Below the pieces are notes generated by a model. It searched no databases and was not told where the DNA came from. It saw only the letters and a list, made by a program, of their open reading frames with translations. 64,000 nt of DNA from Octopus vulgaris (taxonomy: Eukaryota). Below are positions 7,168 to 37,282 of this stretch, one piece after another. Where the stretch lies: positions 27,962,001-28,026,000 of the forward strand of contig OX597839.1 of NCBI GenBank assembly GCA_951406725.2, given 5' to 3'. Both the position numbers and the translations under genes were made by a program. The stretch's first letter is position 1. Each line of letters begins with the position of its first letter.

Positions 7168-7485
7168 GAAGGTGCATAGCTCTGTGGTTAGAGCGTCAAG
7201 CTTACGATCGTGAGGCTGTGAGTTCAAATCCCGAACCGGGCTGCATGTTGTATTCTTGAGCAAGGCACGTTACTCCAGTTCGCTCATATGTAGAAATGAG
7301 TTGCGATGTCACTGGTGTCAAGCTGTATCGGCCTTTCCCTTGGATAACATCGGTGGCATAGAGAGGGGAGGCCGGTATGCATGGGCGACTACTGGTCTTT
7401 CATAAACAACCTTGCCCTTACTTGTGCCTCAGAAGGTACCTTTCTAGATGCAATCCCTTGGTGATACATGACCAAAGGGGGTCTC
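7168..7485 (+). mobile_element. tRNA-derived SINE family E
   Basis: tRNA-like head gtggttagagcgtcaagcttacgatcgtgagg..gagttcaaatccc; body matches 2355-2694 and 34443-34787. Confidence 0.88.
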
Positions 7486-7633
7486 AGCATATATCTATAT
7501 ATATATACATATATATAGATTCAGATGAATACTGTACTTCAGTTAAGGCACCAGAATTTAGTACGGTATTATCCATACAATTTCAAAATAAGGTGATTAA
7601 AATCAAAATAAGCAACAAGGATATTCAGGGGTA

Positions 7634-7722
7634 ATGCAGTACGATCGTTTCATGCAACTCCATTTAATTGGACAATGCAATCATTACAGCAATTTAAAAT
7701 GTTGAGCAATCTTCAGCTGCAT
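7634..7722 (-). ncRNA. Hammerhead ribozyme, type I topology, long stem II
   Basis: Minus strand: atgcag-CTGAAGA-[~58-nt hairpin]-GAAA-cgatcg-TA-ctgcat; 6-bp stem I, canonical core, palindromic stem III acgatcgt. Confidence 0.75.
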
Positions 7723-30697: not shown

Positions 30698-31159
30698 TGT
30701 TGCTACAGGTTTACTGGATCTTCAAATTAAATATTTTACATTTATGTATTTGTGATATAGAAAATATGAAGAGTTTTCATCAGGATGACTCAAACTAATA
30801 GGTATGCATTCTGAGTGCTCAAATAAGTGTGCCACCAAATTTCCAATTAGAACAGCAGTTGATGTTGTGGTTGTGTGATTATCTTGTTCAAAAACGGCTG
30901 ATGGTGGCATCCCTTTGAGTCAATGGACATTGGTTAAAGTAATGAGGAAAAGCAAACAGTTAGGCAATGCAGGACAAGGAGATTTGATTTCATTGAATTC
31001 AATCTAAAATTTACCTACGTAATGAAAGGTAAACATAGTACCAACTGGTAAAGATAGTCTCTGACAGCTGTTTCTGGGATGTCCCAGCTATTGGAGCATC
31101 GTATCAAGCAAAGGCTCTGTAAGTCAGGTGTTCCATCGTCAGAGAAATATAGATTAGGC

Positions 31160-34940: not shown

Positions 34941-35014
34941 AACACTACGATCGTTTCATGGCTGTCCAATTCGTAATAATTCGAGTTATGGTTACAGTCA
35001 ATCTTCAGGTAATT
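34941..35014 (-). ncRNA. Hammerhead motif with long stem II
   Basis: Minus strand: tac-CTGAAGA-ttgactgt..acagccat-GAAA-cgatcg-TA-gtg; canonical core, weak stem I. Confidence 0.62.
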
Positions 35015-35612: not shown

Positions 35613-35697
<85 letters not shown>

Positions 35698-35846
35698 AAA
35701 AGCAATAAAGATTCAAGTTAATTTAAATGAATTTACTTGAATATGGTACTTAACTTAGATGCACCAAAACAAAAACTATACTGATTTAACAATACAGTAA
35801 TGTGGGGTGATTATAATCGAGAAAGAAGCAACAAGAATGGATAGGT

Positions 35847-35937
35847 TTTTAGTACAATCGTTTCATACAAGGACAGGCTTTATTAAAAGTTGCAAAAATT
35901 ACAGCATATAAACGTGTCCCGTACTCATCAGCTAAAA
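35847..35937 (-). ncRNA. Hammerhead ribozyme, canonical core, long stem II
   Basis: Minus strand: ttttag-CTGATGA-gtacgggaca..tgtccttgtat-GAAA-cgattg-TA-ctaaaa; 6-bp stem I, about 10-bp proximal stem II. Confidence 0.8.
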
Positions 35938-37282
35938 TACATGTAAGTTCTCTAGACATCCTAGTGGTTGAGGCTATACTCATGAAGTAATGTAGATAAT
36001 TATATATATATACTATGAAGTAATGTAGATAATAATATATATATGCCTTTCCCTTGGGCAACGTCGATGGTGTGGAGAGGGGAAGCTGGTATGTATGGGC
36101 GACTGCTGGTCTTCCATAAACAACCTTGCCCAGATTTGTGCCTTGGAGGGTCACTTTCGGGGTGCAATCTGATGGTCATTCATGACCGGGGGCTGGGGAG
36201 TCGTTACTTTTACAATAATGTGGAAATGACAGCTGTGTAAAGCAGAGTACAGTATTATGTGTTGTTTAATAATGCAGTAAAGAGGAACTGGGTAGAAATA
36301 TGGTGTAGGTACAGGGTAGGAGTGTGTTAATGTGTATTGATACAAGCACGTTCTCTATAAACACCCGGGTAAAAATAACTCTTGGTTAACAACATTCTTT
36401 TCCCTGAAATAAACCTCTGACTGCCAGGTGTCGATCAGTCTTTACATGAAAATTTGTATGGACTTGTACCTGGGTAAGCAATATCTCTTTCTATCTCTCT
36501 CTCTCCATATACACACACACACACCTTTATATATATACTTATTCACACAGGTGAATACATACGCACACACATACACACCTACACTGCACTTGTAAATGTT
36601 TCTCACACATCTCTATTGTGTGTGTATGTGTGCGTAAATACGCAGCAGGTGGCCTGTGTCAGTATTGCAGACTAGGGAGTTCCTATGGTGGTTGAGTAAC
36701 TGAAATCATTCCAAACTCTAATCCTCAGCTTAGAGATTTGGCCATGAATCCAGCAAATGAAGACCAGTACTTCTTTTAATGTGGGATGTTAATTGTAGAT
36801 TTTCTCTCAAAAGACATAACTTCCTCTTTCCATTCAAGTCTTGTGAAAATTTTGGTCTCTCAGACCGATAAAATAAGCACCACTCTTTGAAATAAAAGAC
36901 CTGCCATTGTACCCCCACCATCGCTTGCCAACCAATGTTGGTGTGTTTACATCCCCGTAACTTAGCAGTTCAGCAAAAGAGACCGATGGAATAAGTACTA
37001 GGCTTACAAAGAATAAGTCCTGGGGGTTGATTTGTTCAACTAAAGGCAGTGCTCCAGCATGGCCACAGTCAAAAAACCTCCGCAGAAATAATTAAAATCT
37101 ACAAAAATCTAAATACCTATCAGCTGCAGAAACCCACAACATACTGAGGAGCCTGTTATATAAATTTACGTATATTAGCCAGAAAAATCTGGGATGTACC
37201 GAGTGCACGATAGGGGAACCACAATGTACCGAGTGCGCAATAGGTGAACCGTGATGTGGCAAGGGTTTACTATATATATACA

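What the first reader, a model, noticed from the sequence alone, without database searches (positions are those of the whole stretch)
7634..7722. Hammerhead with ~58-nt stem II sharing a distal motif with the 35847 ribozyme
Seen: canonical CUGAAGA/GAAA/GUA core and 6-bp stem I. Its stem II contains tgctgtaatgattgca, and the 35847 ribozyme contains tgctgtaatttttgca, although their stem I and proximal stem II sequences differ. Flanks also share ggtgatta.aatc and agcaacaag. Inference: one diverged family in which stems covary but a distal stem II motif is conserved, possibly a tertiary contact or protein-binding site. Penelope-type hammerheads usually have very short stem II, so this architecture is unusual.
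Basis: partly seen in the sequence, partly recalled or inferred. Interest (0 to 1): 0.75.

Follow-up and report, generated by a model that had tools for sequence, protein, structure and literature searches.

The report
Long-armed hammerhead of Penelope-like jumping gene
This is the clipped tail of a common jumping gene that carries a predicted self-cutting RNA with an unusually long side arm; the 'shared motif' is kept only within one lineage of these elements, matches perfectly here partly through a one-off mutation, and is likely just the hairpin that caps the arm.

Summary
Real, but narrower than proposed. 7634-7722 (minus strand) is a type I hammerhead with a 58-nt stem II at the 3' end of a 5'-truncated Penelope-like retroelement inserted in (TA)n. 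The 35847 ribozyme belongs to the same lineage (RTs 69% identical); full-length relatives carry the Hydra-clade motifs. The shared 16-mer is the arm's apical hairpin. It covaries and is the most conserved window of stem II (1 of 46, p=0.02, post hoc). But it is no more conserved than the downstream flank and occurs in only 1 of 27 long-armed lineages sampled. The window's C in UGC is private: 39 of 40 family copies have A. Long arms are the rule in this genome: at least 25,393 exact long-spacer cores against 4,801 short. Published Hydra-clade hammerheads have 3-7 bp stems. A palindromic stem III points to cleavage as a dimer; cleavage is untested. Side lead: AAUAAA or AUUAAA lies 23-26 nt before the cut in 14 of 14 subfamilies, but is not enriched across lineages. 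This scan already reported long-armed Hydra-clade hammerheads on other DNA of this genome.

The parts
7517..7722 (-). 5'-truncated 3' end (pseudo-LTR piece) of a Penelope-like element, family A, between (TA)n runs; ends about 123 nt past the predicted cut (the long-end class)
   Evidence: RT-bearing relative L201
7717..7722 (-). stem I, 5' strand (first two bases shared with the TA run)
7710..7716 (-). catalytic core CUGAAGA
7652..7709 (-). 58-nt stem II span: U.U at the base, covarying proximal helices, labile middle, apical hairpin
7663..7668 (-). AUUAAA hexamer (AAUAAA or AUUAAA in 14 of 14 subfamily consensuses, 23-26 nt before the cut); possible poly(A) signal, untested
7657..7657 (-). 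U six nucleotides before GAAA, invariant between two variable paired positions; better-placed candidate for a contact with stem I (inference)
   Evidence: 14 of 14 consensuses, 160 of 161 copies
7640..7651 (-). GAAA, palindromic stem III CGAUCG, UA; predicted cut between 7640 and 7639
7634..7639 (-). stem I, 3' strand
7592..7619 (-). conserved flank words CUUGUUGCUU (7619-7610) and UAAUCACC region, bracketing the short 3' end of insertions (+35 to +40 from the cut)
35696..36002 (-). 5'-truncated 3' end of the young sister family B; hammerhead 35847-35937, motif 35891-35906, AAUAAA 35884-35879

Best explanation
The stretch is the 3' end of a truncated Penelope-like retroelement with Hydra-clade protein motifs, carrying a type I hammerhead predicted to cut as a dimer, and the shared motif is likely just the hairpin that caps its long stem II. 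Shown: the core, the covarying stems, the palindromic stem III, the link to RT/GIY-YIG elements, TA targeting and two fixed 3' ends. Inferred: two hammerheads (for example the two pseudo-LTR copies of one transcript) pair through ACGAUCGU to form stem III and cut slowly or with protein help. Uncut RNA serves as the template for insertion, with reverse transcription starting about 35-40 or 120-155 nt past the cut site. Stem II grew into an irregular rod that points away from the core and is kept for its fold. The apical hairpin is inherited within one lineage and lies too far (about 20 nt up each arm) from stem I to make the usual loop I-loop II contact. If such a contact exists, the invariant U five pairs up stem II and the AC-containing bulge after stem I are better candidates. 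This copy is a dead fossil with destabilising private changes.
For: High-copy repeat with fixed 3' end, variable 5' truncation and inverted 5' copies. Full-length B copies have a 980-aa ORF with RWK, DKT, LYRDD, CxCX5C, CxxC and CxH, the features listed for Hydra in PMC8557442 section 11; database relatives share them. Family A's 3' UTR follows the EN in L201, RT 69% identical to B. Over 16 subfamily representatives 87.6% of cells pair, with 43 double changes against 14.9 shuffled; apical pair 52-66 is CG 8, AU 3, UA 2, other 3, and pair 55-63 is UG 7, UA 5, CG 4. RNAalifold predicts the same hairpin on its own. Stem III is GAUC, GAUU or AAUU in all 14 consensuses; duplex -5.8 to -10 kcal/mol, no hairpin. 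Motif in 1 of 27 long lineages; a further lineage caps its arm with a different, often UUCG, hairpin. Arm length varies continuously among families. 3' ends are bimodal, as for the anole element PAc, where uncut RNA is the template (PMC11167929).
Against: In family A itself the shared register has low predicted pair probability (0.05 in the window copy, 0.12 in the consensus); a slipped hairpin is preferred. The window copy folds no better than shuffles (z 0.25). Five of the ten apical stem positions... more exactly U-A 53-65 and A-U 56-62 never vary, and the first loop U is invariant, which leaves room for a sequence-specific role. The shuffle control ignores relatedness, and only one apical pair has a double change. 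No full ORF hit Pfam RVT_1 or a solved structure; GIY-YIG scored below cut-off (E 0.0018). No genomic sign of cutting: none of 31 alignments (26 distinct RT-bearing copies) starts at the cut.
Confidence: 0.75

Rival explanations
1. The arm hides the element's polyadenylation signal. UGUA in the apical hairpin, AAUAAA/AUUAAA in the 3' arm and the GU-rich CUUGUUGCUU downstream frame a poly(A) site that coincides with the ribozyme cut. Folding of stem II would partly mask the signal in the upstream pseudo-LTR so that transcription can read into the ORF.
For: Hexamer in 14 of 14 subfamily consensuses at 23-26 nt from the cut, with AUUAAA in two separate branches (A/A1b; B3/B4) and no other variant at consensus level. 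The sister lineage I also has AAUAAA, 17 nt before the cut. The spacing and the UGUA/GU-rich roles are recalled textbook knowledge, not from a call.
Against: Noticed post hoc. Hexamer columns are not significantly more conserved than the rest of stem II (p=0.095). Across long-armed lineages 3 of 27 have it in range against 1.3 expected (p=0.15). UGUA is absent in 3 of 14. Part of the hexamer is base-paired, which explains some conservation. Polyadenylation there would remove the downstream 3' ends that insertions retain.
Confidence: 0.12
2. One reading: the apical motif is a sequence-specific tertiary contact or a binding site for the element's own protein, which would help the ribozyme fold.
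For: Most conserved 16-column window of stem II (1 of 46, p=0.022). Several apical positions are invariant. PAc's hammerhead needed protein to cut (PMC11167929).
Against: No covarying partner for the loop (low power with 14 sequences). Loop and 5' triplet vary. Not above the downstream flank. Absent from 26 of 27 long lineages, including lineage E with a related RT. In PAc the RNA needed by the protein lay downstream of the ribozyme.
Confidence: 0.1
3. The arm has no function: it is tolerated growth of loop II in a ribozyme that the element barely needs, and the motif is plain shared descent.
For: Deletion variants exist in the genome (clusters lacking half the apical hairpin). Spans run from under 25 to 86 nt. 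Hammerhead mutants did not affect PAc insertion in vitro.
Against: Compensatory changes along the arm. Stem II spans fold better than shuffles in most long lineages (median z -1.72; z<-1 in 17 of 27). So at least the fold is selected.
Confidence: 0.08

Closest known systems
Hydra-clade Penelope-like elements, including Hydra-1_Obim of Octopus bimaculoides (Craig et al. 2021, PMC8557442; passages, section 11 text and part 2 of the supplement read)
   Same: C-terminal GIY-YIG, RWK, DKT, CxCX5C linker, CxxC/CxH, (TA)n targets, 3' type I hammerhead. Family A's stem II base (U.U then UGC/GCA) matches the Penelope_HM rows of File S2.
   Different: All Hydra rows of File S2 have a 3-7 bp stem II with a 3-10 nt loop; here the span is 57-60 nt. 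Elements are about 4.7 kb with 835-1091-aa ORFs and a long 3' UTR, against generally <3 kb.
Metazoan PLE hammerheads (Cervera and de la Pena 2014, PMC4209133; parts 1-2 of 4 and passages read)
   Same: Type I, in pseudo-LTRs, short palindromic helix III, predicted dimers, mostly solo truncated copies.
   Different: Helix II there is 4-8 bp; no long arm described in the parts read.
PAc Poseidon element of Anolis (Frangieh et al. 2024, PMC11167929; parts 1-2 of 4 read)
   Same: Two fixed 3' ends downstream of the ribozyme (tail); no genomic sign of ends at the cut site.
   Different: Other clade; there the ORF starts inside stem II, here the ATG lies 209 nt past the cut in family B.
Spike-moss PLE-X1 hammerheads (File S2 of PMC8557442)
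   Same: Long stem II span (9 bp plus a 35-nt loop in PLE-X1_sMoe), flagged as deviating from canonical: a precedent for long arms in a PLE.
   Different: EN-minus plant elements in 28S rDNA; unrelated sequence; single families rather than a genome-wide radiation.
Non-LTR retrozymes (bioRxiv 10.64898/2026.07.22.740005, part 1 of 5 read; PMC7229834, listing only)
   Same: Type I hammerhead, derived from PLE pseudo-LTRs.
   Different: Tandem non-coding units; this copy is a solo truncated end of a coding element.

Membership tests
Type I hammerhead ribozyme | Core CUGANGA / GAAA / UH in order, with open stem I | tested here: met
   at least 4,381 exact cores of this stem III class against 0 control
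Type I hammerhead ribozyme | Three helices supported by covariation | tested here: met
   stems I and II covary; stem III is 2 bp with a palindromic loop
Type I hammerhead ribozyme | Match to a curated Rfam hammerhead model | tested here: not met
   0 matches at gathering score in the window (the long arm is the likely reason; not tested)
Type I hammerhead ribozyme | Loop I-loop II tertiary contact | tested here: inconclusive
   no partner for the apical loop; invariant U near the base of stem II and a TACC/AACY bulge after stem I
Type I hammerhead ribozyme | Self-cleavage | not testable with these tools
   no raw RNA reads; no pile-up of copy 5' ends at the cut
Hydra-clade Penelope-like element | Single ORF, RT followed by C-terminal GIY-YIG | tested here: met
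   PF01541 E 0.0018, below cut-off; RT identity from motifs and a weak alignment to an RVT_1-positive PLE ORF; no direct RVT_1 hit
Hydra-clade Penelope-like element | RWK and DKT motifs | tested here: met
   (family B and close subfamilies); family A's own ORF is seen only as a broken copy (L201)
Hydra-clade Penelope-like element | CxCX5C linker, CxxC and CxH near the end, no CCHH | tested here: met
   absence of CCHH judged by eye
Hydra-clade Penelope-like element | Insertion into (TA)n; pseudo-LTRs and inverted 5' copies | tested here: met
Hydra-clade Penelope-like element | Short element (<3 kb) with a canonical short-stem hammerhead (typical, not diagnostic) | tested here: not met
   about 4.7 kb between hammerheads in L193 and a 57-60 nt stem II, against File S2
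Hydra-clade Penelope-like element | Phylogenetic placement with the published Hydra reference proteins | not tested
   the tree holds only genome copies and 8 of 68 unnamed database relatives
Non-LTR retrozyme | Tandem non-coding units each with a hammerhead | tested here: not met
   solo truncated end; family linked to an RT/EN ORF
Naiad PLE | N-terminal endonuclease, no canonical hammerhead | tested here: not met
   EN is C-terminal and the core is canonical
Metazoan poly(A) signal (definition recalled) | AAUAAA or AUUAAA 10-30 nt before a 3' end, GU-rich element after it | tested here: inconclusive
   present in 14 of 14 subfamilies; not enriched across lineages, 3 of 27, p=0.15; 3' ends of RNA not observable

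The most novel reading that the evidence does not exclude
In this lineage the lengthened stem II is a regulatory insert that carries the element's poly(A) signal. The host's cleavage-polyadenylation machinery and the dimer-dependent ribozyme aim at the same spot, and folding of the arm decides between a terminated mRNA, read-through into the ORF and the uncut template used for insertion. That would give a function to Penelope hammerheads, whose role is still open.
Probability: 0.12. Interest if true: 0.75.

Novelty: new variant of a known kind. Interest (0 to 1): 0.36.

Why it matters
The role of hammerheads in Penelope-like elements is unresolved. This genome holds at least 25,000 copies with a 42-70 nt stem II, which Rfam did not detect in this window. 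A young family with intact 980-aa ORFs and a graded series of 14-16 subfamilies gives a ready natural set for testing what a long arm does to dimer cleavage. The specific motif flagged is a minor, lineage-limited feature.

Tried and rejected
Rfam scan: nothing. Expression: no RNA holder listed on record. Two layings of contigs show the family B end, with both TA-joined 3' ends, in runs labelled as three organisms, but cannot show strand, ends or level; no splice joint or poly(A) loose end was listed, which is no evidence either way. The non-coding 3' UTR looked like a decayed ORF; a Pfam test of one piece found nothing and the real ORF lay further upstream. Pfam and PDB on full ORFs: no RT hit. 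Apical loop as a self-complementary dimer seed: AAUAUU is palindromic in some subfamilies but not in A, A2, A5, A6 or B; rejected. Cut-site pile-up of 5' ends: about 3 of 31 distinct TA-joined fragments, read by eye from the first 100 of 498 redundant matches, start within 2 nt of the cut, and 0 of 26 RT-bearing copies; no enrichment. The zero changes in CUUGUUGCUU are partly circular, because that word was used to collect copies. The downstream-flank numbers came from a bug and are replaced. Lunse et al. 2017 is not held; what I know of it is recalled or from the review PMC6765202 (passages). Schostak 2008 (PMC2377424, passages) has no mention of polyadenylation. Perreault 2011 (PMC3088659, passages) notes U10.1.U11.1 as a tolerated natural variant.

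Full report
Observation. The finding lies on the minus strand. Stem I is 7722-7717 with 7639-7634, the core CUGAAGA is 7716-7710, the stem II span is 58 nt (7709-7652), and GAAACGAUCGUA is 7651-7640. The 35847 ribozyme has a 60-nt span. The 16-mer occurs twice in the window and never in 100 shuffles. The long-spacer core pattern occurs 4 times against 0.05 expected. Rfam finds nothing at gathering score. The window copy folds no better than shuffles (z 0.25).

What it is. Both ribozymes sit in high-copy repeats of a 2.8-Gb animal genome (3,891 and 2,027 first-look candidates, 40 scored each). An octopus is likely: a 68%-identical protein piece is named from Octopus sinensis. Copies share a 3' end beside (TA)n, are variably 5'-truncated and often have an inverted 5' copy. 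Longer copies lead to an ORF. Family B has many intact 980-aa frames with RWK, DKT, LYRDD, a CxCX5C linker, a C-terminal GIY-YIG and terminal CxxC/CxH, the features that Craig et al. list for the Hydra clade (PMC8557442 section 11). Family A, the family of this finding, is tied to a broken ORF in L201: its 3' UTR follows the endonuclease and an inverted copy adjoins the RT; the RT core is 69% identical to B. Profile support for the RT is weak: no RVT_1 or PDB hit, GIY-YIG below cut-off, a 19%-identity alignment to an RVT_1-positive PLE ORF. 68 database relatives at E<=1e-10 are mostly 600-800-aa proteins on 2-3-kb contigs, many with PF26215 (I recall that family as the PLE thumb region); five of six inspected show RW[KR], DKT and CxCX5C.

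One lineage. I collected 176 distinct copies with the flank word and grouped them into 31 clusters. I kept 14 clusters with at least two copies, dropping four multi-copy indel or near-duplicate variants of A and A3 and all singletons; two singletons were added for the 16-row tool alignment. The ribozyme tree and the RT tree agree in grouping B with B2, B3 with B4 and A with A2 (the last weakly).

The motif. In family A, 39 of 40 copies read UGA-UGUAAU; only the window copy has C. Its perfect match to B is partly luck, although C is the commonest state in the lineage. Across subfamilies the motif is the apical hairpin of the arm. The named structure pairs in 87.6% of 396 cells with 43 double changes (shuffled 77.5% and 14.9; slid controls 26-51% paired). 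That control ignores relatedness. RNAalifold finds the same hairpin unprompted. Pair 52-66 is CG, AU or UA in 13 of 16; pair 55-63 is UG, UA or CG in 16 of 16. The loop is U followed by variable bases. The 16 columns are the most conserved window in stem II (1 of 46; p=0.022, chosen post hoc), but not more conserved than the 103 columns downstream of the flank word (0.94 vs 0.86 changes per column; 57 of 88 windows as good or better; 12 subfamilies). No column covaries convincingly with the loop. Against my reading: in family A the energy model prefers a slipped register (0.05-0.12 for the shared one, against 0.8-1.0 in the six other subfamilies tested), and two apical pairs never vary.

How general the long arm is. 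Exact-core counts: 4,381 with a 50-68 spacer and GATY stem III (control 0), 21,012 with a 42-70 spacer and ANNT (control 64), 1,647 with 20-49 and GATY, 4,801 with 8-25 and RNNY (control 74). The patterns differ, so the ratio is rough. 242 hammerheads in my loci fall into 39 lineages, a sample biased to long spacers by my patterns. Of 27 lineages with spans of at least 42 nt, one has the motif; two more match with two mismatches, one of them possibly a distant relative. Only lineages A/B, I and E were tied to Hydra-type ORFs; the others are assumed. Published Hydra hammerheads, including Hydra-1_oBim, have 3-7 bp stems and 3-10 nt loops, while spike-moss PLE-X1 has a 53-nt span (File S2). Seven full-text searches found no description of long-armed hammerheads in cephalopod PLEs; most subscription papers and Lunse et al. 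2017 were not searchable, and I read only part 2 of 59 of the Craig supplement plus search hits.

Mechanism. Stem III is two pairs closed by four bases that cannot form a hairpin but form an 8-bp intermolecular duplex; all 14 consensuses keep it self-complementary. This is the dimer type described by Cervera and de la Pena, which cut poorly in vitro. Insertions end at +35-40 or +120-155 from the cut, so the template ran past the cut site uncut, as shown for PAc, where reverse transcription starts at two internal sites and ribozyme mutants still insert. The usual tertiary contact joins loop II to a loop in stem I close to the core (PMC3088659). The apical hairpin starts about 22 nt up the arm. 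An invariant U six bases before GAAA (14 of 14; 160 of 161 copies), usually bulged, is better placed. It is paired in B3/B4, and the contact is untested.

Side lead. AAUAAA or AUUAAA lies 23-26 nt before the cut in all 14 consensuses, with UGUA upstream in 11 of 14 and a GU-rich word downstream. It is not significant by column test (p=0.095) or across lineages (3 of 27, p=0.15). I give it 0.12.

Verdict. A genuine, undescribed-looking variant of a known ribozyme in a known retroelement clade. The flagged motif is a lineage-limited hairpin. Earlier notes of this scan reached the same general identification on other DNA of this genome; I had reached it before looking. Interest 0.36.

Noticed in passing
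window 34946-35008 (-): A third long-armed hammerhead (44-nt span, lineage E). Its relatives range from 36 to 69 nt, apparently by small internal duplications; one is tied to an RT 45% identical to family B (L144).
   Followed up: partly
window 31063-31142 (-): A fourth hammerhead, 61-nt span, CAGCUG palindrome, unrelated arm sequence; family not identified.
   Followed up: no
window about 7173-7250 (+): By eye, a tRNA-like SINE head upstream of the finding; not tested with a tool.
   Followed up: no
L091:3083-4540 and opposite strand: Tandem 359-bp units with a canonical 13-nt stem II hammerhead (retrozyme-like), in two opposed arms.
   Followed up: no
G000:C1:5011305-5012441 (L296) and C1:33099609-33105375: Tandem arrays with periods of about 534 and 545 bp, each unit with a hammerhead (50-nt and 26-nt spans).
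   Followed up: no
L226, L227, L238, L121 (lineage J): A very abundant long-armed lineage whose apical hairpin is often closed by UUCG; AAUAAA or AGUAAA follows the cut within 3-8 nt in 8 of 9 subfamilies.
   Followed up: partly
L192:6230-6280 (-), just before the ATG: A conserved ACUUAAY, pyrimidine run and AG directly before the start codon in B, B2, B3 and A5, like a branch point and 3' splice site; other PLEs have a 5' UTR intron. No splice joint seen in contigs.
   Followed up: partly
L191:2026-4965: Family B's ORF has a long Asn-rich insert between RT and endonuclease (980-1091 aa against about 700 aa in most database relatives).
   Followed up: no
L105:2293-2329: A Hydra-type endonuclease followed by a short-armed hammerhead (18-nt span), so both arm types occur in the clade in this genome.
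   Followed up: partly
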